Below are positions 42,044 through 64,000 of a stretch of DNA of 64,000 nucleotides, in pieces (the stretch's first letter is position 1; each line of letters starts with the position of its first letter). Both the position numbers and the translations under genes were made by a program. The notes below the pieces were generated by a model that saw only the letters and a list, made by a program, of their open reading frames with translations, made no database searches and was not told the DNA's origin. Source of the DNA: Candidatus Methylomirabilota bacterium (GTDB lineage: Bacteria; Methylomirabilota; Methylomirabilia; Rokubacteriales; CSP1-6); contig DATBIM010000053.1 of assembly GCA_036556905.1 (NCBI GenBank), forward strand, positions 63,118-127,117, written 5' to 3'.

Positions 42044-42047
42044 TCCC

Positions 42048-44391: not shown

Positions 44392-44856
44392 TCACCAGCC
44401 GAAGAAGTCGCAGGCCCACGCGAAGCGTCCGATCCCCGCCAGCGCCGCTGCCTCCCGGTCCTTGTCGGAGTCACCGACGTGCAGGGACGCCGTCAGGTCC
44501 ACACCGTACCGGCGCGCCAGCTCGAGGAACATGCCGGGCTGGGGCTTGCGGCAGCGGCAGCCATCGGCGTCGACGTGAGGGCACACGCGCCAATCCGTGA
44601 AGGGTCGACCGAGCTGCTCGTTGGCCCAGACGAAGCGGCGTAAGACCTCCGCCTCGCTGATCTCGCGCCGCCCGATGCGCGCCTGGTTCGAGACGATGAA
44701 GCAGTGGTCGAAGCGGGACCGCTCCCGGGCCAGCACGGAGGCGACGCCAGGCATCAGGACCGGGTTGCCGGCGGCATCTACGACGGTTCGGTGGTCTCGG
44801 GCCCGGGCCAGGGTGCCGCCCCAATCGAGAAAGAGCGCCGGGGGCCCGGCTGTCAT
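44392..44856 (-). CDS. HAD-IIIA family phosphatase (GmhB/histidinol-phosphatase-like) with atypical motif I
   Basis: Motif I reads LFLDWGGTL rather than DxDGT. Zn-finger-like insert CPHVDADGCRCRKP, motif III KP..GM, motif IV VGDSDKD. ATGA overlaps the ATPase stop. Confidence 0.8.
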   Translation of the reverse strand: MTAGPPALFLDWGGTLARARDHRTVVDAAGNPVLMPGVASVLARERSRFDHCFIVSNQARIGRREISEAEVLRRFVWANEQLGRPFTDWRVCPHVDADGCRCRKPQPGMFLELARRYGVDLTASLHVGDSDKDREAAALAGIGRFAWACDFFGW

Positions 44857-47810: not shown

Positions 47811-47836
47811 GGAGGCGCCGGCGGGCCGCCGGCCGG

Positions 47837-47992
47837 CTAGCGGACGGGAGACTCCGTCGTTACGGGGCGGTTGGCGAAGCCGCGCTGTTCGAGGTACCGA
47901 TTCATCTCTGTCCCGAACAACCGATGCGCGGACGCCGCCCTGTCGAACACGATGTCCGCCAGAAGGACCACCATCCACTGGACGATCGCCAT
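47837..47992 (-). CDS. small protein between the two ATPase genes (hypothetical, 51 aa)
   Basis: The ATG at 47992 lies 7 nt after GGGAGGG. Sequence MAIVQWMVVLLADIVFDRAASAHRLFGTEMNRYLEQRGFANRPVTTESPVR. By hand count GC3 is about 86%, against about 55% for the overlapping ATPase-extension frame. Confidence 0.6.
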   Translation of the reverse strand: MAIVQWMVVLLADIVFDRAASAHRLFGTEMNRYLEQRGFANRPVTTESPVR

Positions 47993-48072
47993 CGGCCTGC
48001 CCTCCCTTCCCTGGTGGAGCACCCGACTTTCCGACTCCAGGGTACGGATCGAGCATGGCAGATCGATGACGA

Positions 48073-50196: not shown

Positions 50197-50201
50197 CGCG
50201 C

Positions 50202-50708
50202 TCAGTCGGGGCCGGGTGTCAGGTTGTAGTCTCGGAAGAGCCCGTGGGCATACCACAGGGCCGTTGACCAGGGCAGCGCCCGCATCGGCCCCCGGGTGGC
50301 GTCGCGTATCGCCCACAGCGTGAGCGCGACGGGCACGAGCAAGCCCAGGGTCAGCGAGCCGCCCGTCGCGCGGGCTACCCGCCGGTTGAGCGACGCAAAG
50401 GTCTCGATCACCGCCCCGGCCACCACCGACGGGGCGCGCCCGCTGCCGTTCGTGGGGTGGGTCCTCACGACGGGAGCAAGATCCGTGTCGGCGTGAGTGG
50501 CGATGGACTCTACGAGGTCGTCGACGACGACCTCGTCAGGACGGTAGAGGGTCAGCAGGCTACGCGTCCGCGGCGACCAGCGACATGCCGCCACGCCGGG
50601 CAACCGGGAAACCGCGTCGGAGACACCCTCGGTTCTCGCCCCGGTGGGAAGACGGACGCGCAGGCGCCCGGGGATGTCGTGCAGGATCGCGAGCTGCGGC
50701 CGGTCCAT
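50202..50708 (-). CDS. HMA2-like domain protein with C-terminal TM segment
   Basis: ILHDIPGRLRVRLP...SRLPGVAACRWSPRTRSLLTLYRP (no CxxC). TM segment LTLGLLVPVALTLWAI. Its stop is 5 nt from the ATPase start. Confidence 0.7.
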   Translation of the reverse strand: MDRPQLAILHDIPGRLRVRLPTGARTEGVSDAVSRLPGVAACRWSPRTRSLLTLYRPDEVVVDDLVESIATHADTDLAPVVRTHPTNGSGRAPSVVAGAVIETFASLNRRVARATGGSLTLGLLVPVALTLWAIRDATRGPMRALPWSTALWYAHGLFRDYNLTPGPD

Positions 50709-51794: not shown

Positions 51795-52586
51795 GTGAAC
51801 GACGACACGTATCCGCGATTTCGTTGGCTGGAGCGCGGTGAGGGCGAGCCGGTGGTGTTCCTGCACGGCCTCATGGGTCACATGCACTTCTGGGATACGA
51901 CGCTCGACATCCTGAGCGGCGGGTGTCGGGCGCTCGCGCCGACGCTTCCCGTCTTCGATGAGGATCTTCCCGAGGTGTCCATTGCCGAGCTGGCCCGCTG
52001 GGTGGTGCGTTTCCTCGACGCACTCAATCTGGGACGCGTCGTCCTGGGTGGCAACTCGCTGGGCGGTCACGTCGCCCTGGCCACCACCCTGGTCTTTCCC
52101 ACCCGAGTCGCGGGACTCGTCCTCACCGGTTCGTCGGGTCTCTTCGAGCGGGGCTTCACCCGCGAGGGCTCGCACCGCCCGTCCAGTGAGTACGTGCGGC
52201 GGAAGATGGAAGACGTGTTCTACGATCGGCGCCTGGTGACGCCCAATTGGGTGGAGGCCGTCCGCGGCACCCTCACGAACCGGGCGACCGCGCTCCGGGT
52301 GCTGCGCTTCGCCCGGGCGGCCAAGCGTGACAACGTGGGGCACGACCTGGGAGTGATCGACGTGCCGACGCTGCTGGTGTGGGGCGCCGAGGATCGCATC
52401 ACGCCGCCGGCCGTCGCCGGGCGCTTCGCCGCGCTCATCCCGAGTTCCCGGCTGGTGTTTTTGCGGCGGTGTGGCCACGCGCCCATGCTGGAGCAGCCGG
52501 AGGCGTTCGGCGCCGTGGTGCGGGCCTGGCTGGAGGATATGGCCCTCATCGGGAGCGGCGCTCTCCCTGACCACGGGCTTCGATGA
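51795..52586 (+). CDS. alpha/beta hydrolase
   Basis: VVFLHGL, nucleophile elbow GNSLGG, and C-terminal CGHAPMLEQPE. GTG follows GAGGAGGA. Confidence 0.9.
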   Translation: MNDDTYPRFRWLERGEGEPVVFLHGLMGHMHFWDTTLDILSGGCRALAPTLPVFDEDLPEVSIAELARWVVRFLDALNLGRVVLGGNSLGGHVALATTLVFPTRVAGLVLTGSSGLFERGFTREGSHRPSSEYVRRKMEDVFYDRRLVTPNWVEAVRGTLTNRATALRVLRFARAAKRDNVGHDLGVIDVPTLLVWGAEDRITPPAVAGRFAALIPSSRLVFLRRCGHAPMLEQPEAFGAVVRAWLEDMALIGSGALPDHGLR

Positions 52587-54082
52587 TTGCTCGGGCCGGG
52601 GGGGCGCTGCTCGAGCGGCTGGCCAGCCGGCGGCGGCGGACGCTGGAACACGCGTGGCGTGCTCCCGCCGATGTCCAGGAGGCGGCGCTTCACCGCCTCG
52701 TCGCCTGTGCCCGCGACACCGAGTTCGGCCGCGCCCACGATTTCGTCGGAATCCGTTCGGTGGCCGACTACCAGGCTCGTGTCCCTCTGCGTCGGTACCT
52801 GGATTTTCGGCGGTACTGGCAGCGCGCGCTCCAGGGTGTGCCAGACGTGACCTGGCCGGGGCGGCCTCGCCACTGGGTGAAGACGTCGGGCACCACCGCT
52901 GGGGACAAGCTCATCCCGGTCACGACTGACGCGCTGGCCTCTCACCGGCAAGGTGGTTGGGACGCGCTGTTCATGGCGGTCGAGCGCACGGGCGGGGCGC
53001 AGCTCCTGGGTGGGGCCATGCTCTTTCTCGGCGGTACCAGTCAGCTCACCCCGATCGGCGACGGCGCGCTGGTCGGCGACCTGTCGGGGCTGGCCGTCCG
53101 CCGGCTGCCCCCGGGCTTGCGTGGACGCTACTCACCGGGGCCCGATATCGCGGCGATTCCCGATTGGCCGACACGACTCGCCCGTATCGCCGAGCGGGTG
53201 GCCGGCCAGGACTTGCGGCTGCTCTCGGGGATGCCCTCCTGGATGCTGCTCGTCCTGGAGCACGTGGCCCGCCGCCGCAGCCTGAGGGCCTGCTGGCCGG
53301 ACCTCCGCGTCTTCATTCATGGCGGCGTGGCATTCGGGCCGTACCGTTCGGCCTTCGAGCAATGGTTGGACCGTCGCCTGGAGTACGTCGAGGTCTACCC
53401 CGCCTCCGAGGGCTTCGTGGCGGTACAGACGGAACGGACTGGCGGCCTCAGCGTGATGGTGGACCATGGCGTCTTCTACGAGTTCGTCCCCCTCGAGGAG
53501 CTCGAGGCACCCCGGCCGCGACGACTCACGGTGGCCGAGGTTGAGCTCGGCCCGGCCTATGCGGTGGTCTTGACGACTCCGGCCGGGCTCTGGTCGTACG
53601 TGCTCGGCGACACCGTGCGCTTCACCGGGCGCGACCCTCTGCGACTTCTCATCACCGGACGCATCCGGCACTTCGTCAATGCCTTCGGCGAGAACGTGAT
53701 CGTTGAAGAGGTGGAGAGGGCGCTGCTGGGAGCCTGCGCCAAGGCCGGTGGGGAGGTCGTGGAATTCACCGTGGCCCCGCGCTATCCGACGACCACCGAG
53801 GCTCGCGGGGGTCACGACTGGCTGGTGGAGTTCCGGGTGCCGCCGGGCGACGGGCCGGCGTTCGCGCGGGCGCTCGATGAGACCCTCATCACCCTGAACA
53901 CCGATTACCGCACCAAGCGAAGAGCCGATGTGGGGATGCTGCCGCCCCGCCTGATCGTCCTGCCTCCGGGCAGCTTCCACCACTGGCTGCAGCAGAGGGG
54001 CAAGCTCGGCGATCAGCACAAGGTGCCCCGGGTGACGAACGATCGCGCCGTGGCCGATGCGCTGCTCAGGAATCGCGGTTGA
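52583..54082 (+). CDS. GH3 family (acyl-acid amido synthetase-like) protein
   Basis: TSGTTAGDKLIPVT adenylation motif, YPASEG, and C-terminal ...GDQHKVPR. ATGA overlaps the hydrolase stop. Confidence 0.85.
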   Translation: MIARAGGALLERLASRRRRTLEHAWRAPADVQEAALHRLVACARDTEFGRAHDFVGIRSVADYQARVPLRRYLDFRRYWQRALQGVPDVTWPGRPRHWVKTSGTTAGDKLIPVTTDALASHRQGGWDALFMAVERTGGAQLLGGAMLFLGGTSQLTPIGDGALVGDLSGLAVRRLPPGLRGRYSPGPDIAAIPDWPTRLARIAERVAGQDLRLLSGMPSWMLLVLEHVARRRSLRACWPDLRVFIHGGVAFGPYRSAFEQWLDRRLEYVEVYPASEGFVAVQTERTGGLSVMVDHGVFYEFVPLEELEAPRPRRLTVAEVELGPAYAVVLTTPAGLWSYVLGDTVRFTGRDPLRLLITGRIRHFVNAFGENVIVEEVERALLGACAKAGGEVVEFTVAPRYPTTTEARGGHDWLVEFRVPPGDGPAFARALDETLITLNTDYRTKRRADVGMLPPRLIVLPPGSFHHWLQQRGKLGDQHKVPRVTNDRAVADALLRNRG

Positions 54083-54581: not shown

Positions 54582-55289
54582 GTGATCGAAGTGCTCGGAA
54601 TCGGCATCGCCGACGGCGCGACCGACTGGCTGATGCGTCGCGTGTGTGCCCGCATCAGCCCGGGCGCCCTGACGCTGGTAGTGTCCCCACGAGCCCAGGG
54701 GCGGCGGGCGTTCCTGGACGCGCTGGCCGGCCGCCGGGTGCCTCAAGAGGGACGGGTCTGGGTGAACGGGATCCCGGTGACGCGGGAGACCGCGGGCTGG
54801 CTCCGCCGGAGGGTCGCCGAGGTGGAGTTGTCGGCGCCGCTGCTCGAGCACCGGTCGCTGCTCTGGAATACGCTGGCCGTCGCCCCCCGTGGGCTCCGCA
54901 CGATGCGGGGCTGCATCCGCCTTCCTCAGCCGGCCGCTCGACGAGCGGCCGCGGCGGCTCTCGAGAGCGTTGAGCTTGGGGGCGACGTCGGCCAGCCCGT
55001 GTCTGCTCTGCCCGGGTGGGGACGCATGCATGTGCGGATCGCGCGCGCGCTCGCGCGCCGCCCGGAATGCCTGCTGGCCCGAGAGGTGGACCTGGCCCTG
55101 CCCGCGGAGGAGGCGCAGGCCGTCCTGACCCTGCTCCGCGGCGTGGCGCGCCGCCTGTCGCTCATGGCCATCGCCAGCGTGGAGGACGAGTGGCTGGCCC
55201 ATTGTGCCGGTGACCACGTGGTCACGCTGGACGGATGTGGCCTGGCCTCCACGGCGTTTGATCGACGCGATTCGGAGATCGGGGCCTAG
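54582..55289 (+). CDS. degenerate ABC-ATPase-like protein (all catalytic motifs eroded)
   Basis: ABC order is retained. Walker A is SPRAQGRRAF, the signature is LPGWGRMHVRIARAL, Walker B is CLLAREVD, and the H-loop is ASVED. GTG follows AAGGGGG. Confidence 0.5.
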   Translation: MIEVLGIGIADGATDWLMRRVCARISPGALTLVVSPRAQGRRAFLDALAGRRVPQEGRVWVNGIPVTRETAGWLRRRVAEVELSAPLLEHRSLLWNTLAVAPRGLRTMRGCIRLPQPAARRAAAAALESVELGGDVGQPVSALPGWGRMHVRIARALARRPECLLAREVDLALPAEEAQAVLTLLRGVARRLSLMAIASVEDEWLAHCAGDHVVTLDGCGLASTAFDRRDSEIGA

Positions 55290-57346
55290 CCGGAGGCGCG
55301 GAGGCCGCCGGCCAACTCGTACAGCCGTTCCTGGGAGCGGAGCGTGGGCGCGCCGTCGGCTCGGCGACGCTGGGAACTGCCCTCGGCGGTGATGATCCGC
55401 GCCTTCACCGTGTCAGCCAGCTGGATGGCCAGGATCTCGTCGATCTGGCGCTGCAGATCGGTGTCGAGGATCGGAAAGGCAATCTCGACCCGGTGATCGA
55501 AGTTGCGGGGCATCCAGTCCGCCGAGGCCAGCCAGTACTCGGGAATCCCGGCGTTGAGGAAGTAGAAGACCCGAGCGTGCTCCAGATACCGGTCGACGAT
55601 GGAGATGACCCGGATACGCTCGGAGAGGCCGGCCAGGCCCGGGCGCAGACAGCAGATCCCGCGGACGATGAGGTCGATCGTCACGCCGGCCTGGCTCGCC
55701 GCGTAGAGCTCGACGATGATCTCGGCGTCGACCAGGCTGTTCATCTTGGCCACGATGCGGGCGGGCCGCCCATTCCGCGCATGCTCGGCCTCACGGCGGA
55801 TGCGGGCCACCAGGCCCTCCCGCAGCGCGATCGGGGCCACCATCAGGTGGTGGAACAGGCGGGGGCGCGTGTAGCCGGTGAGCAGGTTGAAGAGCTCGGT
55901 GAGGTCCTCGCCAATCGTCTCCCGACAGGTCAGCAGCCCGAGATCGCTGTAGATGCCGCTCGTGCGGAGGTTGTAATTACCGGTGGCCAGGTGACAGTAA
56001 CGGCGGAGCCCATCATGCTCCTGCCGGACCACCAGGCAGGCTTTGCAGTGCGTCTTGTAGCCCACCAGCCCATAGACCACGTGCGCGCCGACCTCCTCCA
56101 GCGCCCGCGCCCATCGGATGTTCGCCTCCTCGTCGAAGCGCGCCTGCAGCTCGACGAGCACCGCGACCTCCTTGCCCTGCTCGGCGGCCAGGGTAAGCGC
56201 CTGGGCGATGGGCGAGGTCGGGCTCACCCGGTAGAGCGTCATCTTGATGGCGAGGACCTTGGGATCCAGGGCCGCCTCTCGGACGAAGCGGGTCACGACC
56301 TCGAAGGAGTGGTAGGGGTGGTGGATCAGGATGTCGCCGGCCCGGATGGCGCCCCAGATGTCGGGGGCGGCCTCGAGGGCGGGCAGGGGGTGGGGCGGCT
56401 GCGGGACATCCTTCAGCCGCGGCAGGTCCACCGCGGCGTAGAGCTGAAAGAGATCGGAGAAGGCCGTGAAGCCCTGACCGGCGAACAGATCGTCCCGGGT
56501 CAGCTCCAGCTCTTCCACGAGCGTGGCCAGGATGGCCGGCGGCAGATCGGGCTCGTACTGCAGGCGGACCGCGGTGCCCATGCGCCGTTCGCGCAGGCTC
56601 TCCTCCACGCTGGTGAGCAGACTGTCGGCCCGGGCCCGCGGGAGCTGCAGGTCGCCATCGCGGGTCACCCGAATGGCCTGGCAGGCCACGATCTGATAGC
56701 CGTGATAGAGCCGCGACAGGTGCAGCCGGATGACGTCCTCGAGGAGCATGAAGGCGTACTGCCCCGGCGGGGCCGGCACGGCCACGAACCGCGGCACCCC
56801 CGTGGGGATGTGGACCACGGCGAGGGTTGTGTGGGGCAAGGGCGAAGGCTCGGCCGGCTGCATCGACGCGACGAGGCAGAGGGCGCGATTGCCCAGGTGC
56901 GGGAAGGGATGGCCGGGATCGATGGCCAGCGGCGTCACCACGGGGAGCAGCGTCTGCCGAAAATACGTTTCCAGAAACTGCTCCTGTTCCGCGGTGAGGT
57001 CTTTGGCCCGAAGCAGGCTCACGCCCTCCAGGGCCAGCAGCGGCTGCAGCTCGTCGAGGAAGCAGCGGTGCTGCTCCTCCACCAGCGTGTGCACCCGGGC
57101 CGAGACGGCAGCCAGCGTCTCCGCTGGAGTGAGACCGTCGGGACCGGAGGCGGTCTCGCCGGCGTGGATCAGGCGCTTGAGAGAGGCCACCCGGACCATG
57201 AAGAACTCGTCGAGGTTCGCGCTGAAGATGGCCAGAAACTTCACCCGCTCGAGCAGCGGCACCCGGGGATCCTGGGCTTCTTCGAGGACCCGGCGGTTGA
57301 ACTCCAGCCAGGAGAGCTCGCGATTGACGAACTGCTCGCGACTCAT
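55286..57346 (-). CDS. ppk1: polyphosphate kinase 1
   Basis: FVNRELSWLEFNRRVLEEA...RVKFLAIFSANLDEFFMVRV, two PLD-like HKD regions, 686 aa. Confidence 0.95.
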   Translation of the reverse strand: MSREQFVNRELSWLEFNRRVLEEAQDPRVPLLERVKFLAIFSANLDEFFMVRVASLKRLIHAGETASGPDGLTPAETLAAVSARVHTLVEEQHRCFLDELQPLLALEGVSLLRAKDLTAEQEQFLETYFRQTLLPVVTPLAIDPGHPFPHLGNRALCLVASMQPAEPSPLPHTTLAVVHIPTGVPRFVAVPAPPGQYAFMLLEDVIRLHLSRLYHGYQIVACQAIRVTRDGDLQLPRARADSLLTSVEESLRERRMGTAVRLQYEPDLPPAILATLVEELELTRDDLFAGQGFTAFSDLFQLYAAVDLPRLKDVPQPPHPLPALEAAPDIWGAIRAGDILIHHPYHSFEVVTRFVREAALDPKVLAIKMTLYRVSPTSPIAQALTLAAEQGKEVAVLVELQARFDEEANIRWARALEEVGAHVVYGLVGYKTHCKACLVVRQEHDGLRRYCHLATGNYNLRTSGIYSDLGLLTCRETIGEDLTELFNLLTGYTRPRLFHHLMVAPIALREGLVARIRREAEHARNGRPARIVAKMNSLVDAEIIVELYAASQAGVTIDLIVRGICCLRPGLAGLSERIRVISIVDRYLEHARVFYFLNAGIPEYWLASADWMPRNFDHRVEIAFPILDTDLQRQIDEILAIQLADTVKARIITAEGSSQRRRADGAPTLRSQERLYELAGGLRASG

Positions 57347-58257
57347 GAGACGGGCGCTCGCCCCGCCGCGACCAGGAGCAGGCCGTCGCGGACGCCGCGC
57401 ATGCAGACGGTGAGGGCGGGATAGTCTCCGGAGAGCATCAGCTCCTCGACGATCAGCGCGCCGGCCACGATGATGTCGGCGCGCTCGGCCTTGAGGCCAG
57501 GCACCCGCCGCCGCTTGCGCAGGGGCAGGGCTTCGAGCCGGGCCCGGATCCGGGTGATGTCGTGCCGGCTGAGCCTGAGACCGTGACGCTCCCGGCGATG
57601 CCGACCGCTGAGGTGGATCGCCGCCAGGGCCCGCACGGTGCCGCCAAGCCCGACCAGGGTGGACCCCGGCTCCACGGGCGGTGACGCGGCGGCGAGCTGC
57701 TGACGGATCTCGTCGCGCAGCCTGGTGAGCTCTTGCCGGCGGGGCGGGTCATGGCGGAGAAAACGTCTCGTCGTGCGGACGACCCCCAGGGGGAAGCTGA
57801 CGGCGGCGTGGGGAAGGCCGTCCCGCACGTGGGTGAGCTGCAGGCTGCCCCCGCCGAGATCCATGACGACTCCGGCCCGGAAGCGCAGGCTCTCGAGCGC
57901 TGCCAGCGCCCCGAGGCGGGCTTCTTCGCAGCCGCTGAGCACGGCGACTTCCACACCGTGGCGGCGGCGTAGCGGCTCGAGCAGCCGATCCCGATTGCCC
58001 GCGTCGCGCACCGCCGAGGTCGCAATCGCCAGAACGCGGAGGGGCTGCCCGTTGCGCACCACGCGCAGGAAGCGGCGCACGGCGTCGAGCGTGTCGGCGA
58101 TCGCTTGCCGCGGCAAGCGGCCGGATCGGCCACCGCCGAGCCGGGTCTGGGCTCGCGCCTCGCGCAATATGCGTATGTGGCGGCCGGGACCGAGCTCGGC
58201 GAGCAGAAGCCGGACGGCGTTGGAGCCTAGGTCGACGAGCGCGACCTGCCCGGGCAT
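57343..58257 (-). CDS. ppx: Ppx/GppA family exopolyphosphatase
   Basis: VALVDLGSNAVRLLL, DLGGGS. ATGA overlaps ppk1. An alternative TTG start is at 58293. Confidence 0.9.
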   Translation of the reverse strand: MPGQVALVDLGSNAVRLLLAELGPGRHIRILREARAQTRLGGGRSGRLPRQAIADTLDAVRRFLRVVRNGQPLRVLAIATSAVRDAGNRDRLLEPLRRRHGVEVAVLSGCEEARLGALAALESLRFRAGVVMDLGGGSLQLTHVRDGLPHAAVSFPLGVVRTTRRFLRHDPPRRQELTRLRDEIRQQLAAASPPVEPGSTLVGLGGTVRALAAIHLSGRHRRERHGLRLSRHDITRIRARLEALPLRKRRRVPGLKAERADIIVAGALIVEELMLSGDYPALTVCMRGVRDGLLLVAAGRAPVS

Positions 58258-58317
58258 GCCCCTGAGTGTCGGAGCCGGCTCGGGGGCGGTCAAATCACAA
58301 AGCTGTTACAGCCTTGA

Positions 58318-58356
58318 TATCCACCGCTATCCACAGGCTTATGCGCAGCTATCCCC
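58318..58356. promoter_or_regulatory. phased direct repeats TATCCAC / TATCCAC / TATCCCC in the ppx-PHP divergent control region
   Basis: Copies start at 58318, 58328 and 58350 (offsets of 10 and 22 bp). They sit inside the most AT-rich intergenic stretch of the window (58294..58517). Confidence 0.35.
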
Positions 58357-58517
58357 AGCAACACAATATTTGCGGTGTCGTAATGCTGGAGTAACAAGAT
58401 ATTGTGGTACAGTGCCGCAGAATACAGCTCAAACGGATTGCGCGTTGAATAGCAAAGAGTTGGGTCCGGTGAATTGCGGTGGAGGACCGTGGAAAGAAGC
58501 ATGAGAGGAGGCGCCGG

Positions 58518-59300
58518 TTGAGGCGGATCGATACCCATACGCACCCCAAGATGTCCAAACACTTTCTCTTCGACTCCCGATCGCTCGATCGTATGGAACA
58601 GATGGCGCTCAAGATCGGGCTCGACGGCGTGGCGGTGACCGAGCACTTCCACGGCGTGGGCTTCTGGACGATCTACGATCACTTGCAGGCGACCCATCCG
58701 TACGAATACGGGTTGTTCTGGACGGGCCGACTGGCCTTGATCCCCGGGGCCGAGATCAACATCCGGGAAGGCGCCCACATCATCGTGCTCGGCGATGTGA
58801 GTGAGCTGCGTCGGCTCGACCGGGCGTTTCCGACTCCCCTGTCCCACGGCTATGAGCCAACGCTTCGGGAGTTTCTCGACGTCACCGACGACTTCGACGT
58901 CGTGCGGGTGGGCGCCCACATGTTTCGTCTCGGCAAAGAGCTGGGGAAATTCACCGCTGCCGACCTGCGGCGACTGCACGCGTTGGAGGTCAATGGCAAG
59001 GACTTCGGCACCGAAGTGATGTTGCTCGCCCAAGCGCGCGCCCTCGGCCTGCCCATCGTCGCGGGAAGCGACGCTCACCACTGGCTCCAGCTCGGCGTCC
59101 GCCACACACTCGTCCACACCGACGAGCTCACTCTGCGCTCCGTGCTCAAGGGAGTGAGAGAGGGCTTGACGGGGTTTGCGACGCGCCCCTATACTCCGCC
59201 CCGCGTCAAGGCCGCCAAGACCCTGAAAACTATTACGAAAATGTTACGAAAGTATTACGGCGGTCGCGCGGTGTCGGCAGCCACGTCGCTCGGCCGGTAG
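58518..59300 (+). CDS. PHP domain phosphoesterase
   Basis: The TTG at 58518 lies 6 nt after GAGAGGAGG. RIDTHTH metal motif, TEH, and GSDAHH. The ORF start GTG at 58479 is an alternative. Confidence 0.85.
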   Translation: MRRIDTHTHPKMSKHFLFDSRSLDRMEQMALKIGLDGVAVTEHFHGVGFWTIYDHLQATHPYEYGLFWTGRLALIPGAEINIREGAHIIVLGDVSELRRLDRAFPTPLSHGYEPTLREFLDVTDDFDVVRVGAHMFRLGKELGKFTAADLRRLHALEVNGKDFGTEVMLLAQARALGLPIVAGSDAHHWLQLGVRHTLVHTDELTLRSVLKGVREGLTGFATRPYTPPRVKAAKTLKTITKMLRKYYGGRAVSAATSLGR

Positions 59301-59380
59301 CAAAGCCGACGCACTGATCCCGAGCGCATCGCCGGCGGGTCCTCCGTCGGGCGACGGCCTGCGCCATCGGCGCTAGGCGG

Positions 59381-59704
59381 GTGGAGGGACGGGTGACAGG
59401 CGGCATTCCAGTGCGGTTCCGCGGGCGAGCCCGCCGGGACGCTGCAGCGTTCTACCTCTCGCAGCTCGCCAAGGGAGTTCTGTCGGGAGAGTTGGCGGTG
59501 GTGTCGGGTGAACAGGCCACATCGCTGGTAACCACCGAGTATCTGCTGCTGGACATCGAGGTGAAACAGAAGAAGCGGGCGAACCACGTCGCGATGAAGC
59601 TCCGCTGGCCGCGCCGGCCGCTCATTCGGGCTGGCGGAAAGTTTCGCTCGTCTGAGGCGGCCGCCGGGAACACTCACGAAGGGGGAGGGGATGGGGAATC
59701 GTGA
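59381..59704 (+). CDS. amphi-Trp domain protein 1 (divergent, basic)
   Basis: Ends the domain with HVAMKLRWPRR, parallel to KIEIAIAWKR and KIELQIGWKR in the next two genes. GC3 is about 76%. The start is uncertain. Confidence 0.6.
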   Translation: MEGRVTGGIPVRFRGRARRDAAAFYLSQLAKGVLSGELAVVSGEQATSLVTTEYLLLDIEVKQKKRANHVAMKLRWPRRPLIRAGGKFRSSEAAAGNTHEGGGDGES

Positions 59705-59942
59705 CGCGTTCGAGTTCGAGGGCATGGCGACACCGGGCGAGGCGGCCGACGCGCTGAACAGGATCGCCGAGGGGATCCGGGCCCGGTCGCTGTCGCTCTC
59801 CATGGGGGACGACGACATCGTGGTCTATCCCGACGGGGATCTATCGATGGAGATCGAGGCCAGCGACAAGAAGGGCAAGGCCAAGATCGAGATCGCCATC
59901 GCCTGGAAGCGCCGCTCACAGGGTGATGACGAGGACGAGTGA
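59691..59942 (+). CDS. amphi-Trp domain protein 2 (acidic C-terminal tail DDEDE)
   Basis: 83 aa. A 70-residue gapless alignment with protein 3 (DAFEFEGMATPGEA... versus DRFEFARIASPEEV..., ...GKAKIEIAIAWKR versus ...RKGKIELQIGWKR). Confidence 0.8.
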   Translation: MGNRDAFEFEGMATPGEAADALNRIAEGIRARSLSLSMGDDDIVVYPDGDLSMEIEASDKKGKAKIEIAIAWKRRSQGDDEDE

Positions 59943-59958
59943 GCGCTGAGGAGGAGCC

Positions 59959-60291
59959 ATGGCCAAGGATCGCTTCGAATTCGCCCGTATCGCCTCCCCG
60001 GAGGAGGTCGCCGAATACCTCACCTCCCTGGCCGTCGGGCTCAAGCGCGGCGACGTGAGCCTGGAGTCTGGAGACCGGAGTTTGCGGCTCAATCCCGGCT
60101 CCGAGGTGAAGCTCGAGTTGAAGGTCGGCCAGAAGGACCGCAAGGGCAAGATCGAGCTTCAGATCGGCTGGAAACGGCCGGCCGGCGCCCGCGCGGGCGA
60201 CCTGCGGGTCGCTGTCGGCCCGCGCCCGACAGAATCACGCCCGACAGAACCCAGCCCGCCGTCTCGGCGCCCCGCCCGCCGCACCGCCTAG
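59959..60291 (+). CDS. amphi-Trp domain protein 3 (Pro/Arg-rich C-terminal tail)
   Basis: ATG follows GAGGAGGAG. Paralogue of protein 2, with a 40-aa tail ...PRPTESRPTEPSPPSRRPARRTA. Confidence 0.8.
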   Translation: MAKDRFEFARIASPEEVAEYLTSLAVGLKRGDVSLESGDRSLRLNPGSEVKLELKVGQKDRKGKIELQIGWKRPAGARAGDLRVAVGPRPTESRPTEPSPPSRRPARRTA

Positions 60292-60308
60292 ACAGCGGTT
60301 GCCGGACG

Positions 60309-61922
60309 ATGGGTACCGTCCTGTTCGAGGACCTCGGGTCGGATCTCGCCCGCATGGCGAGGCTGGTGCAGTCGCAGCTCGTCGCCGCGATGACCGCCTT
60401 CTTCCGGCGCGACACCGCCCTGGCCGGCAAGGTGATCGGCAAGGACGATCACGTCGACAATCTCTTCGGCTTCATCGAGGAAAAGTGCTTCGAGCGCATC
60501 GCCGGCGAGCCCCCGGATAGCGCGCGATCGCGACGGCTGCGGGGCGTCTTCCGGGCGGCCCTGAGCCTCGAGAAGCTGGGCGACTACGCCGTGAGCATCG
60601 CCGAGCAGGCGGTGCACGCCTCCCGCCTGCCGCCGCGGCCGGCGCCCTTCGACCTGACCGGCCCCACGCGGGTGGCCCTGGCCGCCCTCGACGAGGTCAT
60701 CACCGCCTTCACTGACGCCAGCGCCGAGAAAGCCAAGCACGCCTGTCGTTGCGAGGTGGAGCTCGATCGGCAGTACCGGACGGCCCTGGCCGAAGCCTTT
60801 CAGCGGCTCGGCCGCGGTGAGGATCCGGCGTTCGTCGTCACCCATCTCTTCGTCGCGAAATTTCTCGAGCGGGTCGGTGACTCCATCCTGAACATCGGCG
60901 AGACCACGCTCTTCATTCTCACCGGCCAGCGACTCAAGCTCCACCAATACCTGCATCTCGAGGAGATGGTGGGCCCGGTAATCGCGACCCCCCAGGACCC
61001 GGTCGCCCTCGACGTCCGCCACATCTGGGGCGGCATCAGCGGCGCGCTGGTCAGTCGCCTGTCAGTGGCCGGGAGCAGCCCGCTCATCTGGAAGGAGGGG
61101 AGCGAGGGGAAGATCGACGAGGAGATCCGCCAGCTGCGGGAGTGGGACCGCATCGTGCCCGGCGTCGTGCCTGCGGTCAAGGCGGAGTATCACCACGAGG
61201 GCCGCGAGTCGTTCCTGGGACAGTTCCTGGACGGCATCCTGCTCCGTGACATCTACCTCACGCGGCCCTGGAAAGACAAGCTGCGGGCCACCCGGGCCCT
61301 GCTGGAAACGGTCCGCGACGTGTGGCTGGCCACCGTGCGCGAGGAACGCCCTCGCGTGGACTACGTCCACCAGATTCGCGAGCGCCTGCCCGAGCTCTAC
61401 ACGATGCACCCCGAGCTGGCCGCGCTCCGCGGCGGCGAGACGCGGATCTTCGGCATCGCGCATCCCTCGCTGGAGGTGCTGCTGGAGCACATGAGCCAGG
61501 CCGAGGCCGACCTGGCCCCTCCCGTCACCGTCCGCGTGCACGGGGACTTCAACACCAATAACCTCGTGTGGAACGAGCACGACGAGCGTGTGCACTTCAT
61601 CGACGTCCACCGCAGCGGGGATGGCGACTATCTTCAAGATATTGGGGTGTTGCTGATGTCCAACACCCGTACCCCGATCGAGGACCCGCGTGTAGTCGGT
61701 GAGCTCGAGCGGGTGAACCGGCTGGTGGAGGACTTCGCCGGCGAGTTTGCCCGGCGGATTGGCGATGAGTGGTACGGCGCGCGGCTCACGCTCTCCCAGG
61801 CGCGATCCCACATCACGTCGGCGCGGCTCGTGACCGATCCCGCGTTTGCCCGTGATCTCTATCTCAAGGGCGTGCGGCTGCTCGAGCGGGCCGTCGAGCT
61901 GGGTGGATGCGTGTCGCGGTGA
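60309..61922 (+). CDS. PhoU-domain / aminoglycoside-phosphotransferase-like kinase fusion protein
   Basis: The N-terminal 210 aa or so hold two PhoU repeats (DDHVDNLF..., KLGDYAVSIAEQA, EVELDRQYR, ERVGDSILNIGE). The C-terminus has the kinase catalytic loop VHGDFNTNNLVW and the metal-binding FIDVHRSGDGDYLQDIG. Confidence 0.85.
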   Translation: MGTVLFEDLGSDLARMARLVQSQLVAAMTAFFRRDTALAGKVIGKDDHVDNLFGFIEEKCFERIAGEPPDSARSRRLRGVFRAALSLEKLGDYAVSIAEQAVHASRLPPRPAPFDLTGPTRVALAALDEVITAFTDASAEKAKHACRCEVELDRQYRTALAEAFQRLGRGEDPAFVVTHLFVAKFLERVGDSILNIGETTLFILTGQRLKLHQYLHLEEMVGPVIATPQDPVALDVRHIWGGISGALVSRLSVAGSSPLIWKEGSEGKIDEEIRQLREWDRIVPGVVPAVKAEYHHEGRESFLGQFLDGILLRDIYLTRPWKDKLRATRALLETVRDVWLATVREERPRVDYVHQIRERLPELYTMHPELAALRGGETRIFGIAHPSLEVLLEHMSQAEADLAPPVTVRVHGDFNTNNLVWNEHDERVHFIDVHRSGDGDYLQDIGVLLMSNTRTPIEDPRVVGELERVNRLVEDFAGEFARRIGDEWYGARLTLSQARSHITSARLVTDPAFARDLYLKGVRLLERAVELGGCVSR

Positions 61923-62800
61923 TCGGCGTGCCGGGAGCCTGGTCGACCGAGCGGTTGGCCAGCGCGCTCGGGCAGGCCGGCGCCGACCCGCTGGTGGTGG
62001 ATCTCGCCGCCTGCAGCCTGCGCCTGCCCGATCCCCGCCTCTTCCATCAGGGCCGACCCGTCGAGGGACTGGCCGGGGCCCTGGTGAAGAAGATCGGCGA
62101 CACGGCGGAGGGGCCAGGGGTGATCCAGCGTCTCAACCTGCTCCACCACCTGGAGCGGACCGGCGTACCGGTCCTGAGCCCGCCGGGTCGGCTGGAGGTC
62201 GCCGCCAACCGCTATCGGATGACGCTGGAGCTGGCCCGGGCGGGTGTTCCCCTTCCTGACACGCTGGTGACCGAGGATCCCGCCGAGGCCGAGGCTGCGG
62301 TGGAGCGGTTCGGGGCGGCCGTGGTGAAGCCGCTCTACACCTCCAAGGGCCGGGGGATGCAGCGGGTGGATCCCAGCCTCGATCTCCGGGCCTTCTTCGC
62401 GCGCTGGCGACACGAGACCGGTCCCATCTATCTCCAGCGCTTCATCAAGCATCCCGGCCGTGACCTCGGACTCGCCGTGCTCGAGGGCAAGTGCCTGGGG
62501 GCGTACTGGCGGGTTGCCCGTGACGATCAATGGATGACGACGATCCATTCGGGGGGCCGTTACGAGGCTGCGGAGCCGGGATCCGAAGCCATTGAGATCG
62601 CGCTCCGGGCGGCCGGGCACTTCGGCCTCCTCTTCACCGGCGTCGATCTGATGGAGACGCCCGAGGGCGGCTGGGTGGTGCTGGAGGTGAGCGCCTTCGG
62701 CGGGTTCCGCGGGCTCCTCGCGGCGCACGGAATCGACGCGGCGCCGGCTCTGGCGGGGGCTGCGCTCAACCGCTTCGGGCGCCGCCGCCCCTCGCCGTGA
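61907..62800 (+). CDS. RimK-like ATP-grasp ligase (GAK-system type)
   Basis: VVKPLYTSKGRGM, IYLQRFI, and GVDLMETPEGGWVVLEVSAFGGF. 16-nt overlap with the upstream gene. Confidence 0.9.
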   Translation: MRVAVIGVPGAWSTERLASALGQAGADPLVVDLAACSLRLPDPRLFHQGRPVEGLAGALVKKIGDTAEGPGVIQRLNLLHHLERTGVPVLSPPGRLEVAANRYRMTLELARAGVPLPDTLVTEDPAEAEAAVERFGAAVVKPLYTSKGRGMQRVDPSLDLRAFFARWRHETGPIYLQRFIKHPGRDLGLAVLEGKCLGAYWRVARDDQWMTTIHSGGRYEAAEPGSEAIEIALRAAGHFGLLFTGVDLMETPEGGWVVLEVSAFGGFRGLLAAHGIDAAPALAGAALNRFGRRRPSP

Positions 62801-63846
62801 CCGACCTCCACGCGCTCGGCCGCGGGGTGCCGACGCCCTACGTGCTCTCGCTCCGCTTCGTCGACGTTCCCCTGCGGGTTCGCACCAACGATGCCGACGT
62901 ATGGGCGAGTCTCGGACACTACTTCGAGCCCTGGGTGACGCCGGGCGATGCTGCTCCGGTGGCGGTGGTGACCCTCGTCCAGGGTCATCCGCGCCCGGAG
63001 GGAACGTTCGCCGACGTGGCCCGCCGCGACGGGAAGGCGGTGAAGGAAGCGGTGCGGCTCGAACCGCACGGGCGGCTCATCCTCAAGCGTCGCACCGGAG
63101 TGCTCATGGGGCTCGCGCCGGGTCGTGCCGTCGCCGTGGGGGACCTCCGGGCCAACCTGAATCAGGCGATCAACCTGGTCAACGCCTGTTACGCCAAGGC
63201 CGTGGTCGAGCGCGGCTACCTGCTGCTTCACGCCTCGGCGGTGGCGAAGGGCCAGGATGTCGTGGCCCTGGCCGGGGTGCCCGGCGCCGGCAAGTCTACG
63301 GCGGCGCTCCACCTCGTCGAGGCCGGCTTTCGCTTCGTGTCCAATGACCGCCTGCTCGTCCGCGCGACCCCCGGGGGCGTCGACGCGTTGGGCTACCCCA
63401 AGCAGCCGCGGGTCAACCCGGGAACCGTGCTTCACCATCCCCGGCTCGCGGCGCGACTCAAGCCCGAGGAGCGGCAGGCGCTGGCCGCGATGGAACCGGC
63501 GTCGCTCTGGGGCCTCGAGCGGAAATGCGACGTCGATCTCGATGCGCTCTACGGGCGGGGGACAGTGGTGTTGCGCGGCAGGCTGCGGGTCCTCGTGCTC
63601 CTGCGCTGGAGGCTGGGCGGCGACGGTTTCGCGGTGCGGCCGATCGCCGGCGCCGCCGCCCTGAGCCAGCTCGACCTCTTCGCCAAGGACCTTGGCGTGT
63701 TCGATCTGGACCAGGCGCCCGGCGCTCCCCGTGACGCGGAGGCCTCGGCCAGGTACGCGAGGCTACTCGACTGCCTGCACGTGCTCGACGTGACGGGCCG
63801 ACCCGATTTCCCGGCCCTGGTGGGCGTCGTGCGCGGATTGCTGTAA
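62797..63846 (+). CDS. HprK-related P-loop kinase (kinase B type)
   Basis: LLLHASAV followed by the P-loop LAGVPGAGKSTAAL and FVSNDRLLV, as in the HprK/P C-terminal domain. GTGA overlaps the ATP-grasp stop. Confidence 0.85.
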   Translation: MTDLHALGRGVPTPYVLSLRFVDVPLRVRTNDADVWASLGHYFEPWVTPGDAAPVAVVTLVQGHPRPEGTFADVARRDGKAVKEAVRLEPHGRLILKRRTGVLMGLAPGRAVAVGDLRANLNQAINLVNACYAKAVVERGYLLLHASAVAKGQDVVALAGVPGAGKSTAALHLVEAGFRFVSNDRLLVRATPGGVDALGYPKQPRVNPGTVLHHPRLAARLKPEERQALAAMEPASLWGLERKCDVDLDALYGRGTVVLRGRLRVLVLLRWRLGGDGFAVRPIAGAAALSQLDLFAKDLGVFDLDQAPGAPRDAEASARYARLLDCLHVLDVTGRPDFPALVGVVRGLL

Positions 63847-64000
63847 CCGGGCGGGGCCGAGGCCGCTCGTCCGGCTGGTAACGGAAGATTTACTCGCCCG
63901 TCATTGACTGTTAACGCTGGAGTCGGACTCTGGGTCCGTGGCGAAGACGACGGGAGAGGTGGGTCGGCAGCCCGGGCGGACGCCCGCTCCCCAGCGTCTC

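What the first reader, a model, noticed from the sequence alone, without database searches (positions are those of the whole stretch)
59381..60291. Three tandem amphi-Trp paralogues with different tails, one ending like a RimK substrate
Proteins 2 and 3 align without gaps over 70 residues. The shared pattern is (D)xFEF...SP.E.A..L...A.G......SL..GD....L.P.......E......K.GK.KIE..I.WKR. Protein 1 keeps only the amphipathic strand plus Trp (HVAMKLRWPRR).

The tails differ sharply. Protein 1 has a Gly/Glu-rich tail, protein 2 ends in the acidic run GDDEDE, and protein 3 carries a 40-aa Pro/Arg-rich tail.

RimK-type ATP-grasp ligases extend the acidic C-terminus of ribosomal protein S6 with glutamates. 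An acidic-tailed small protein encoded two genes upstream of a RimK-like enzyme is therefore a plausible ligation substrate. The conserved Ser residues (SLSLS / SLES) are candidate targets for the HprK-like kinase, by analogy with HPr Ser46.
Basis: partly seen in the sequence, partly recalled or inferred. Interest (0 to 1): 0.7.

Follow-up and report, generated by a model that had tools for sequence, protein, structure and literature searches.

The report
Three amphi-Trp paralogues in a GAK cassette
Three small tandem genes are specialised copies of the "amphi-Trp" protein in a conserved but never-studied enzyme cassette that sits among phosphate-control genes; the acidic tail of the middle copy is conserved, but there is no evidence yet that the neighbouring ligase extends it.

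Summary
Three co-directional, translationally coupled ORFs all carry the amphi-Trp domain and align to each other without gaps: P1 59393-59704, P2 59691-59942, P3 59959-60291.

They belong to the database-defined "GAK system". The order amphi-Trp(1-3) > PhoU-fused APH-like kinase > RimK/LysX-like ATP-grasp > HprK-related kinase B recurs in all 32 related loci fetched, as far as each contig reaches, across about eight lineages.

In Rokubacteria the trio is orthologously conserved and charge-complementary (mean +11.5, -10.4, +4.9). It also occurs as collinear natural fusions (P1-P2, P2-P3, P1-P2-P3), which suggests a hetero-oligomer.

- **P2 tail:** 100 of 113 orthologues end in D or E.
- **Limits on that:** the tail is Asp-dominated, its last residue is not fixed, and it is almost confined to Rokubacteria. 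Outside them, 26 of 27 cassette-linked amphi-Trp proteins end in a conserved terminal strand instead.
- **P1 and P3 distal tails:** by-products of an overlapping ribosome-binding site and of read-through into a spacer.
- **Serines:** no Ser is conserved family-wide.
- **Context:** strongly phosphate-linked (ppk1/ppx, PhoU fusion, phoB-pst-phoU next door).

The function has never been tested. The RimK-substrate idea is possible but weakly supported. The Ser-target idea is not supported.

The parts
59393..59704 (+). P1: basic amphi-Trp paralogue (103 aa from GTG 59393; the ORF caller starts it at 59381). The conserved tail core W-P-R-R-P-L-I-R runs from W at 59606-59608 to PLIR at 59618-59629. 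The Gly-rich end overlaps the ribosome-binding site and start of P2.
   Evidence: TIGR04354 31.1 bits. Orthologues in 11 Rokubacteria loci. Mean net charge +11.5, pI 11.3. Overlap with the Shine-Dalgarno region of P2.
59691..59942 (+). P2: acidic amphi-Trp paralogue (83 aa). It lacks the family's terminal strand and ends in a basic-then-acidic tail, KRRSQ-GDDEDE. Trp is at 59904-59906; the acidic run is at 59922-59939.
   Evidence: TIGR04354 56.4 bits. 113 orthologues, 100 ending in D/E. AF2 model pLDDT 71: helix plus four strands, tail disordered.
59959..60291 (+). P3: canonical-type amphi-Trp paralogue (110 aa). Trp at 60169-60171. Conserved terminal strand D-L-R-V-A-V-G at 60199-60219. Lineage-specific Pro/Arg extension at 60229-60288.
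   Evidence: TIGR04354 58.8 bits. About 115 orthologues of 90-94 aa with a conserved xxxx[KR]xx[DE]L[RH]VxVG. The distal part aligns to the stop codon plus spacer of relatives.
58518..59300 (+). PHP-domain phosphoesterase, the first gene of the cassette in Rokubacteria and Dehalococcoidia. The probable start is TTG 58518 behind GAGGAGG; the ORF caller gives 58479.
   Evidence: Pfam PHP_C 31.1 bits. Syntenic in 17 loci. The only related solved structure is 7rty 'PsfC'.
60309..61922 (+). PhoU (two repeats) fused to an APH/protein-kinase-like phosphotransferase. In the loci fetched it always follows the amphi-Trp gene(s) directly.
   Evidence: Pfam PhoU 106.6 bits, APH 37.1 bits. Present in 30 of 30 loci that cover the position, each with an intact HGDxNxxN motif. 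PDB relatives cover only the PhoU half.
61907..62800 (+). GAK-type ATP-grasp ligase of the RimK/LysX/MptN clade. It carries an invariant E-V-S-A-F-G-G where RimK and LysX have E-V-N.
   Evidence: TIGR04356 281.5 bits (cutoff 300), MptN 178.7, RimK family 125.6, LysX 106.8. PDB relatives. Motif survey.
62797..63846 (+). HprK-related kinase B (P-loop GVPGAGKS).
   Evidence: TIGR04355 257.7 bits against a cutoff of 200. Syntenic in all loci that reach this position. No related PDB sequence.
58318..58494 (.). Candidate operator and promoter region of the cassette. TATCCAC occurs twice, 10 nt apart (cores at 58320 and 58330), followed by TATCCCC (core 58352). A conserved AT-rich block follows, then an inverted GTGGA pair 10 nt apart (58479, 58489).
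   Evidence: The same layout occurs upstream of the PHP gene in L001, L004, L005, L006, L007 and L010, and partly in L008, L009 and L026. That a PhoB-type regulator binds here is inference only.
55286..58293 (-). Context: the divergent ppx (57343-58293) and ppk1 (55286-57346) polyphosphate genes.
   Evidence: Pfam Ppx-GppA 168 bits; all four PP_kinase domains.

Best explanation
The three genes are the small-protein component of a Rokubacterial variant of the 'GAK' cassette. That cassette consists of a PHP phosphoesterase, amphi-Trp protein(s), a PhoU-fused APH-like kinase, a RimK/LysX-like ATP-grasp ligase and HprK-related kinase B.

**Shown**
- One ancestral amphi-Trp gene has become three orthologously conserved, specialised paralogues. 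P1 is strongly basic. P2 is acidic and has replaced the family's terminal strand with a short poly-Asp/Glu tail. P3 keeps the canonical form with the terminal strand.
- All the enzymes keep their catalytic motifs.
- The cassette lies among phosphate-homeostasis genes.

**Inferred**
- P1, P2 and P3 assemble into a charge-complementary hetero-oligomer.
- That oligomer is the common target or scaffold of the cassette's enzymes. It would be reversibly phosphorylated by the two kinases and the phosphoesterase, and modified by ATP-grasp ligation of an amino acid.
- Activity would be gated by phosphate status through the PhoU domain and Pho-type transcriptional control.

The P2 acidic tail is most simply an electrostatic element of the complex: a partner for basic P1/P3, or a polyanion mimic. 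It may in addition be a ligation site in this lineage.
For: - **Domain identity and paralogy:**
- **Invariant gene order:** amphi-Trp > PhoU-APH > ATP-grasp > HprK-B in the 32 loci from Rokubacteria, Dehalococcoidia, Myxococcales, Nitrospinota, Gemmatimonadales, Desulfarculus, Desulfatirhabdium and Lambdaproteobacteria.
- **Trio conserved:** in 11 complete Rokubacteria loci, with group-specific tails.
- **Charges:** P1 +11.5, P2 -10.4, P3 +4.9 on average.
- **Collinear natural fusions:** P2-P3 (P0003, identical in three samples), P1-P2 (P0363) and P1-P2-P3 (P0362). Two-domain proteins also occur in other lineages.
- **A phosphoesterase is always associated:** PHP upstream in Rokubacteria and Dehalococcoidia, or a calcineurin-like phosphoesterase fused to an amphi-Trp domain in L018, P0474 and P0490.
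- **Catalytic motifs intact everywhere:**
- **Low monomer confidence:** AF2 gives pLDDT 54 and 71 with an amphipathic sheet. This is compatible with an obligate oligomer.
- **Phosphate context:**
  - ppk1/ppx next door in the window.
  - The PhoU fusion itself.
  - PhoB, pstS and pstC, and a stand-alone PhoU-like ORF further on, directly downstream in Rokubacteria.
  - PhoH2 and/or PhoU near the cassette in Desulfarculus, Myxococcales and Dehalococcoidales.
  - Conserved direct-repeat boxes upstream.
Against: - No experiment exists on any component. Literature searches found nothing on function.
- No residue other than the Trp and one Leu is conserved family-wide, so no modification site can be named.
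- The models are monomers only and of modest confidence. No complex was modelled.
- Some fused ORFs in metagenomes may be errors. P0361 looks frameshifted.
- The relatives MptN and CofF of the ATP-grasp act on small molecules. Other lineages add a CofD-like transferase, so the enzymes might make a metabolite rather than modify the proteins.
- One proteome reports an amphi-Trp protein among the 20 most abundant proteins. That fits a structural or storage role better than a signalling substrate.
Confidence: 0.4

Rival explanations
1. First reader's model. The ATP-grasp extends the acidic C-terminus of P2 with Glu/Asp, as RimK does on ribosomal protein S6. HprK-B phosphorylates the Ser residues of SLSLS/SLES, by analogy with HPr Ser46.
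For: - The closest solved relatives of the ligase are RimK, LysX and ArgX.
- The P2 tail is disordered in the model.
- The tail is conserved as acidic in 88% of 113 orthologues.
Against: - The same ligase is conserved where no acidic-ended amphi-Trp exists: only 1 of 27 proteins outside Rokubacteria has an acidic last hexapeptide.
- P2-type tails make up 6 of 141 family clusters.
- The tails are Asp-dominated and the last residue varies; 12% end in A, S, K, N, G, T or V.
- The tail is internal in P2-P3 and P1-P2-P3 fusions.
- The serines are not conserved in P1 or outside Rokubacteria.
Confidence: 0.15
2. Carrier-protein model (LysW-like). P2's C-terminal carboxylate is loaded by the ATP-grasp with an amino compound. 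The kinases and the phosphoesterase then process that compound while it is tethered.
For: - LysX and ArgX are among the closest solved relatives.
- The pairing of a small acidic-tailed protein with an ATP-grasp and a kinase echoes LysW, LysX and LysZ (established knowledge of the AAA lysine pathway).
Against: - There is no invariant C-terminal motif comparable to EDWGE.
- No reductase, aminotransferase or release hydrolase is in the cassette.
- Acidic-tailed members are absent from most lineages that carry the cassette.
- The LysX equivalog score is far below its cutoff (106.8 against 275.6).
Confidence: 0.08
3. Metabolite model. The enzymes build or tailor a phosphorylated, glutamylated small molecule, as CofD/CofF do for F420 and MptN does for methanopterin. 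The amphi-Trp proteins are not substrates. They would be abundant binding, storage or scaffold proteins, possibly binding polyphosphate or another polyanion, with the P2 tail acting as a polyanion mimic.
For: - The second-best NCBIfam hit of the ligase is MptN (178.7 bits), and CofF is also hit.
- A CofD-like protein (TIGR04357) is part of the cassette in seven of the fetched loci, from Desulfarculus, Desulfatirhabdium, Gemmatimonadales, Lambdaproteobacteria and Myxococcales.
- An amphi-Trp protein is among the 20 most abundant proteins in Dissulfuribacter thermophilus (PMC13490349).
- P1 is extremely basic, and ppk1/ppx are adjacent.
Against: - The amphi-Trp genes are strictly adjacent to the enzyme genes and translationally coupled to them in every lineage.
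- Phosphoesterase-amphi-Trp fusions point to a direct enzyme-protein relationship.
- No other biosynthetic genes are conserved in the cassette.
Confidence: 0.2

Closest known systems
GAK system (NCBIfam/TIGRFAMs TIGR04354 amphi-Trp, TIGR04355 HprK-related kinase B, TIGR04356 GAK ATP-grasp, TIGR04357 CofD-like, TIGR04358 XXXCH)
   Same: The amphi-Trp proteins, the ATP-grasp (best hit TIGR04356) and HprK-related kinase B (above cutoff) are adjacent on one strand. The same core recurs in 32 loci.
   Different: - The Rokubacteria/Dehalococcoidia form has no CofD-like or XXXCH gene nearby. It has a PHP phosphoesterase upstream instead.
- The PhoU-APH kinase, for which I found no dedicated family model, is an invariant member.
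- The amphi-Trp gene is triplicated into three specialised types.
- The system is defined only by database models. I found no experimental paper.
RimK / ribosomal protein S6 C-terminal glutamylation
   Same: A RimK-family ATP-grasp with an N-terminal pre-ATP-grasp domain. A small protein with an acidic, disordered C-terminal tail is encoded nearby.
   Different: - The candidate substrate is not S6.
- The tail is Asp-rich, with a variable last residue.
- The ligase scores below the RimK-family and S6-ligase cutoffs (125.6 against 143.4; 52.2 against 331).
- It has E-V-S in place of the E-x-N metal-binding motif.
- No modification has been shown.
LysW/LysX (ArgX) amino-group carrier protein system
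   Same: Among the closest solved structures (3vpd, 1uc8, 5k2m, 3vpb). A small acidic-tailed protein sits beside an ATP-grasp and a kinase.
   Different: - No zinc-finger LysW fold.
- No invariant EDWGE end.
- No LysY, LysJ or LysK genes.
- The kinases belong to unrelated families.
HPr / HprK-P
   Same: A P-loop kinase distantly related to the HprK C-terminal domain (Pfam 20.5 bits, below the cutoff of 33.3; TIGR04355 above its cutoff) lies next to small proteins.
   Different: The amphi-Trp proteins show no detected similarity to solved structures and have no conserved Ser. From memory, not tested: HprK-like kinases of lasso-peptide clusters phosphorylate a C-terminal Ser of a small precursor. 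That may be a closer functional analogy, given the recurrent [LIV]x[IV]-S-S motif in non-Rokubacterial tails.

Membership tests
GAK system | At least one amphi-Trp domain protein (TIGR04354 / PF20068) | tested here: met
   P1 31.1, P2 56.4 and P3 58.8 bits against a cutoff of 31. PF20068 is above its cutoff for P2 and P3.
GAK system | GAK-type ATP-grasp (TIGR04356) adjacent | tested here: inconclusive
   It is by far the best hit (281.5 bits, E 6e-84, full length) but lies just under the curated cutoff of 300. It shares the invariant EVSAFGG and KPL[FY]TSKGRG motifs with loci that also carry the CofD-like gene.
GAK system | HprK-related kinase B (TIGR04355) adjacent | tested here: met
   257.7 bits against a cutoff of 200, full length.
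GAK system | CofD-like protein (TIGR04357) in the cassette | tested here: not met
   No homologue in the 64-kb window or in any Rokubacteria or Dehalococcoidia locus. It is present in L022, L023, L024, L028, L029, L030 and L032. The window ends 154 nt after HprK-B, but syntenic Rokubacteria loci have PhoB there.
GAK system | XXXCH domain protein (TIGR04358) | tested here: not met
   Found only in the Desulfarculus loci L024 and L028 and in the fusion P0471.
RimK-S6 modification system | Ligase is an S6--L-glutamate ligase equivalog | tested here: not met
   NF007764: 52.2 bits against a cutoff of 331. RimK family TIGR00768: 125.6 against 143.4.
RimK-S6 modification system | Substrate has a fixed C-terminal Glu(-Glu) acceptor | tested here: not met
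   P2 orthologues end in D 64 times, E 36 times and another residue 13 times, out of 113.
RimK-S6 modification system | Post-translational addition of Glu to the protein C-terminus | not testable with these tools
   Needs mass spectrometry or an in vitro assay.
LysW/LysX carrier system | Carrier protein with an invariant C-terminal EDWGE-type motif, plus LysZ/Y/J/K genes | tested here: not met
   There is no invariant C-terminal motif and no such genes in the cassette. LysX equivalog: 106.8 bits against a cutoff of 275.6.
HPr/HprK-P | Conserved phospho-acceptor Ser in the small protein | tested here: not met
   No Ser column reaches 60% across 62 distinct cassette-linked amphi-Trp sequences.

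The most novel reading that the evidence does not exclude
The amphi-Trp trio is a new kind of phosphate-status switch. It would be a charge-complementary hetero-oligomer of a fold with no solved relative. Its assembly or polyanion (polyphosphate) binding would be set by combined phosphorylation (a PhoU-gated kinase, an HprK-like kinase and a PHP phosphatase) and ATP-grasp amino-acid ligation.

On this reading, the genetically encoded poly-Asp/Glu tail of P2 is a hard-wired mimic of, or primer for, the ligase product that other lineages add post-translationally. That would be a bacterial counterpart of tubulin or S6 polyglutamylation, tied to the Pho regulon.
Probability: 0.12. Interest if true: 0.8.

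Novelty: new variant of a known kind. Interest (0 to 1): 0.55.

Why it matters
The GAK cassette is widespread. The amphi-Trp family alone has 1891 clusters at 50% identity. It combines three ATP-using enzymes with a small protein of a fold that has no solved relative, yet none of it has been studied experimentally.

This locus adds four concrete, testable handles:
- An invariant PhoU-fused kinase and a consistent phosphate or polyphosphate gene context.
- Alternative phosphoesterase, or CofD-like, accessory modules in different lineages.
- A conserved terminal strand after the Trp, only partly covered by the current domain models.
- A natural three-way subfunctionalisation (basic, acidic-tailed and canonical) with collinear fusions, which predicts a defined heteromer.

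If the proteins are indeed modified by the ligase and the kinases, this would be a new bacterial protein-modification pathway linked to phosphate starvation.

Tried and rejected
- **Fold assignment.** The AF2 model of P3 had pLDDT 54 and that of P2 had pLDDT 71. Foldseek against the PDB gave nothing better than E about 1 for either. A profile search against PDB sequences returned only de novo coiled coils and noise. No fold could be assigned.
- **Modelling the P2-P3 interface through the natural fusion P0003.** MAFFT placed the P3 orthologues on the first (P2) half. The alignment was therefore unusable and the job was not run.
- **Anti-phage defence.** No PADLOC family matched any cassette protein, apart from a marginal PHP hit. 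Rejected.
- **Literature.** Searches for amphi-Trp, GAK system, the TIGR/PF accessions and the enzyme names found one proteomics table entry and nothing on function. A search for 'PsfC' was uninformative.
- **Promoter and terminator scan of 58000-64000.** Nothing above the shuffle expectation.
- **P1 and P3 distal tails as functional 'different tails'.** Rejected. They are explained by overlap with the ribosome-binding site of P2 and by loss of a stop codon.
Full report
**1. Observation**

The + strand carries three short ORFs at 59381-59704, 59691-59942 and 60291-ending 59959-60291.
- All three match the amphi-Trp models. TIGR04354 scores are 31.1, 56.4 and 58.8 bits against a cutoff of 31. 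PF20068 scores are 16.6, 40.2 and 45.6 bits against a cutoff of 27.
- Local alignments between them are gapless and far above shuffled controls: z = 25 for P2/P3, 13.5 for P1/P3 and 10.8 for P1/P2.
- P1 therefore retains the whole domain, not just the last strand and the Trp.
- GC3 is 0.75-0.88 in frame.
- P1 probably starts at GTG 59393. A GGAGGG lies upstream, and orthologues begin MTATIPAKFRG.

The genes are tightly packed and partly overlapping:

| Junction | Spacing |
|---|---|
| P1 / P2 | 14-nt overlap |
| P2 / P3 | 16-nt gap, with GAGGAGG |
| P3 / next gene | 17-nt gap |
| PhoU-APH kinase / ATP-grasp | 16-nt overlap |
| ATP-grasp / HprK-B | 4-nt overlap |

**2. What the locus is**

Downstream lie three enzyme genes:
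- A 537-aa fusion of two PhoU repeats with an APH/protein-kinase-like phosphotransferase.
- An ATP-grasp whose best family is TIGR04356, 'GAK system ATP-grasp enzyme' (281.5 bits, cutoff 300). The next-best hits are MptN, the RimK family and LysX.
- HprK-related kinase B (TIGR04355, 257.7 bits, cutoff 200).

Upstream lie a PHP-domain phosphoesterase and, divergently, ppx and ppk1.

This is the database-defined 'GAK' system (Grasp, Amphi-Trp, Kinase). I found no paper on it. The only literature hit is a proteomics table listing an amphi-Trp protein among the 20 most abundant proteins of Dissulfuribacter thermophilus.

**3. Comparative genomics**

An alignment of ATP-grasp orthologues (A1) retrieved 32 loci from species-representative genomes. 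They come from Rokubacteria/Methylomirabilota, Dehalococcoidia, Myxococcales, Nitrospinota, Gemmatimonadales, Desulfarculus, Desulfatirhabdium and Lambdaproteobacteria.

Wherever the contig allows, the order is amphi-Trp (1-3 genes) > PhoU-APH > ATP-grasp > HprK-B. Two accessory layouts exist:
- Rokubacteria and Dehalococcoidia have the PHP gene upstream and no CofD-like gene.
- Desulfarculus, Desulfatirhabdium, Gemmatimonadales, Lambdaproteobacteria and one Myxococcales locus have a CofD-like gene (TIGR04357) after HprK-B. They often add a further amphi-Trp gene, an XXXCH-domain protein and PhoH2.
- In other Myxococcales loci, and in two unrelated family representatives, a calcineurin-like phosphoesterase is fused to a C-terminal amphi-Trp domain.

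The catalytic motifs are intact throughout: HGDxNxxN in the APH-like kinase, the Walker A motif in HprK-B, and KPL[FY]TSKGRG in the ATP-grasp.

The ligase has E-V-S-A-F-G-G where RimK and LysX align E-V-N. This is a family hallmark and I did not interpret it further.

**4. Phosphate link**

- The window has ppk1/ppx adjacent to the cassette and a PhoB/PhoR-like pair at 41357-43856.
- In most Rokubacteria loci, HprK-B is followed by PhoB, then PstS and PstC. A stand-alone PhoU-like ORF lies about 8 kb downstream.
- PhoH2 and/or a stand-alone PhoU lie next to the cassette in Desulfarculus, a Myxococcales locus and a Dehalococcoidales locus.
- Upstream of the PHP gene, Rokubacteria share a conserved non-coding layout. 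It has two TxTCCAC boxes 10 nt apart, a TxTCCCC box 22 nt further on, a conserved AT-rich block, and two inverted GTGGA boxes 10 nt apart just before the ribosome-binding site. This is the geometry expected for an OmpR/PhoB-type regulator, but that is inference.

**5. The tails**

*P2.* Among 113 orthologues of 76-90 aa, 100 end in D (64) or E (36). In 81 the last three residues are all acidic. Asp dominates, with 400 D against 119 E in the last eight positions. The acidic run follows a short basic stretch, [KR][RHQ]x[KR]. The acidic character is therefore conserved, but the terminal residue is not fixed.

*P3.* About 115 orthologues are 90-94 aa long. After W-K-R they share xxxx[KR]xx[DE]L[RH]VxVGxR. 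The window's extra 20 Pro/Arg-rich residues lie where six relatives have their stop codon and spacer.

*P1.* Orthologues share W-P-[RK]-R-P-L-I-R-[IVA], followed by a short Gly-rich end. That end is simply the reading of the Shine-Dalgarno region and start of P2 in another frame.

*Family-wide.* The family has 1891 clusters at 50% identity.

| Feature of the tail after the Trp | Observed | Shuffled tails |
|---|---|---|
| Hydrophobic-x-hydrophobic element (peak 10-13 residues after the Trp), of 137 tails | 81% | 41% |
| That element followed by S/T | 37% | 7% |
| That element followed by two S/T | 16% | 1% |
| P2-type tail (short, acidic, no strand) | 6 of 141 clusters | not applicable |

Among the 27 cassette-linked amphi-Trp proteins outside Rokubacteria, 26 have the terminal element, 3 end in D/E, and 1 has an acidic last hexapeptide.

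Across 62 distinct cassette-linked sequences, only the Trp and one helix Leu reach 90% conservation. No Ser column is conserved.

**6. Evidence that the paralogues work together**

- Mean net charges are +11.5 for P1, -10.4 for P2 and +4.9 for P3, consistently across loci.
- Collinear fusions exist. P2-P3 (P0003) is identical in three sequencing runs, with P1 and the PHP gene upstream and PhoU downstream. P1-P2 (P0363) and P1-P2-P3 (P0362) also occur. Other lineages have two-domain proteins.
- In these fusions the P2 tail is an internal linker.

**7. Structure**

- AF2 with alignments of orthologues and paralogues gave pLDDT 54 for P3 (strand-helix-four strands; the region after the Trp was unmodelled) and pLDDT 71 for P2 (helix 15-30, strands 34-38, 43-47, 51-60 and 65-74; tail disordered).
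- Neither model matched anything in the PDB by Foldseek.
- The family profile did not match any PDB sequence.
- The ligase's nine closest solved relatives (E 7.5e-18 to 9.5e-13) are LysX, RimK and ArgX-type enzymes.
- HprK-B has no related PDB sequence.
- The PHP protein matches only 7rty 'PsfC'.

**8. Interpretation**

I rank the possibilities as follows.

1. *Heteromeric target or scaffold.* The trio forms a hetero-oligomeric target or scaffold of a Pho-linked, multi-enzyme modification cassette. This rests on strict adjacency and coupling, the fusions, the charge complementarity, the ever-present phosphoesterase and the intact enzymes.
It cannot be the conserved role of the ligase, because most lineages have no acidic-ended amphi-Trp protein. 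The variable, Asp-rich terminus and the internalised tail in fusions also argue against it. The proposed serines are not conserved. If HprK-B phosphorylates these proteins, the recurrent [LIV]x[IV]-S/T-S/T motif after the terminal strand in other lineages is a better candidate site, but Rokubacterial P1 and P3 lack it.
3. *Metabolite model.* A metabolite-building role for the enzymes, with amphi-Trp as an abundant binding protein, is not excluded. The affinities to MptN, CofF and CofD, and the high abundance in one proteome, keep it open.

**9. Novelty and score**

- The system is already named in family databases, so this is not a new kind.
- The Rokubacterial form is a distinct variant: PHP instead of CofD-like, an invariant PhoU-kinase, and a subfunctionalised trio that includes a rare acidic-tailed subtype.
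- The whole system is experimentally untouched.
- Interest is moderate (0.55).

Noticed in passing
window 58318-58494: A conserved non-coding layout lies upstream of the PHP gene. TATCCAC occurs twice, 10 nt apart, followed by TATCCCC, a conserved block 'CAGCAACACAATATTTGCGG..GTAAT..GCAACA.GATATTGTG', and an inverted GTGGA pair 10 nt apart. The layout is shared by at least six other Rokubacteria loci. It looks like a pair of operators for an OmpR/PhoB-type regulator flanking a promoter.
   Followed up: partly
window 62675-62700 (ATP-grasp residues ~257-266) and all loci L001-L032: The GAK ATP-grasp has an invariant E-V-S-A-F-G-G (E-I-S in one locus) where RimK and LysX align E-V-N, the usual metal-binding Glu-x-Asn of ATP-grasp enzymes. 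This is a family-specific change in the active site.
   Followed up: partly
L018:6063-7934, L027:393-1805; proteins P0474, P0490: Calcineurin-like metallophosphoesterases of about 560-620 aa carry a C-terminal amphi-Trp domain, in cassettes that lack the PHP gene. Another representative (P0393) fuses amphi-Trp to a response-regulator receiver domain. P0471 fuses it to an XXXCH / cytochrome-c'-like four-helix domain.
   Followed up: partly
L022, L023, L024, L028, L029, L030, L032 compared with the window and L001-L017, L020, L025, L026: The PHP phosphoesterase and the CofD-like protein look mutually exclusive in the fetched cassettes. PHP occurs in Rokubacteria and Dehalococcoidia; the CofD-like gene occurs in the other lineages. 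This may be an alternative accessory module.
   Followed up: partly
window 58479-58518: The PHP ORF is probably called 13 codons too long. Homologues align from residue 14, and a TTG at 58518 sits 6 nt after GAGGAGG. The GTG at 58479 lies inside the inverted GTGGA box.
   Followed up: partly
window 41357-43856, 44853-50316 and 52583-54082: A PhoB-like response regulator and a PhoR/PnpS-like histidine kinase lie at 41357-43856. Two P-type ATPases, one Ca-type and one heavy-metal-type, lie at 44853-50316. An OlsH-like lyso-ornithine-lipid synthetase homologue (below its cutoff) lies at 52583-54082. Ornithine lipids are a known phosphate-sparing membrane lipid (from my own knowledge).
   Followed up: no
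L031:7357-7799, L011, L026: Several syntenic loci from metagenome-assembled genomes show split or frameshifted cassette genes: P1 in L031, PhoU-APH in L026 and L031, and HprK-B in L011. These are probably assembly errors in long-read genomes rather than decay.
   Followed up: no
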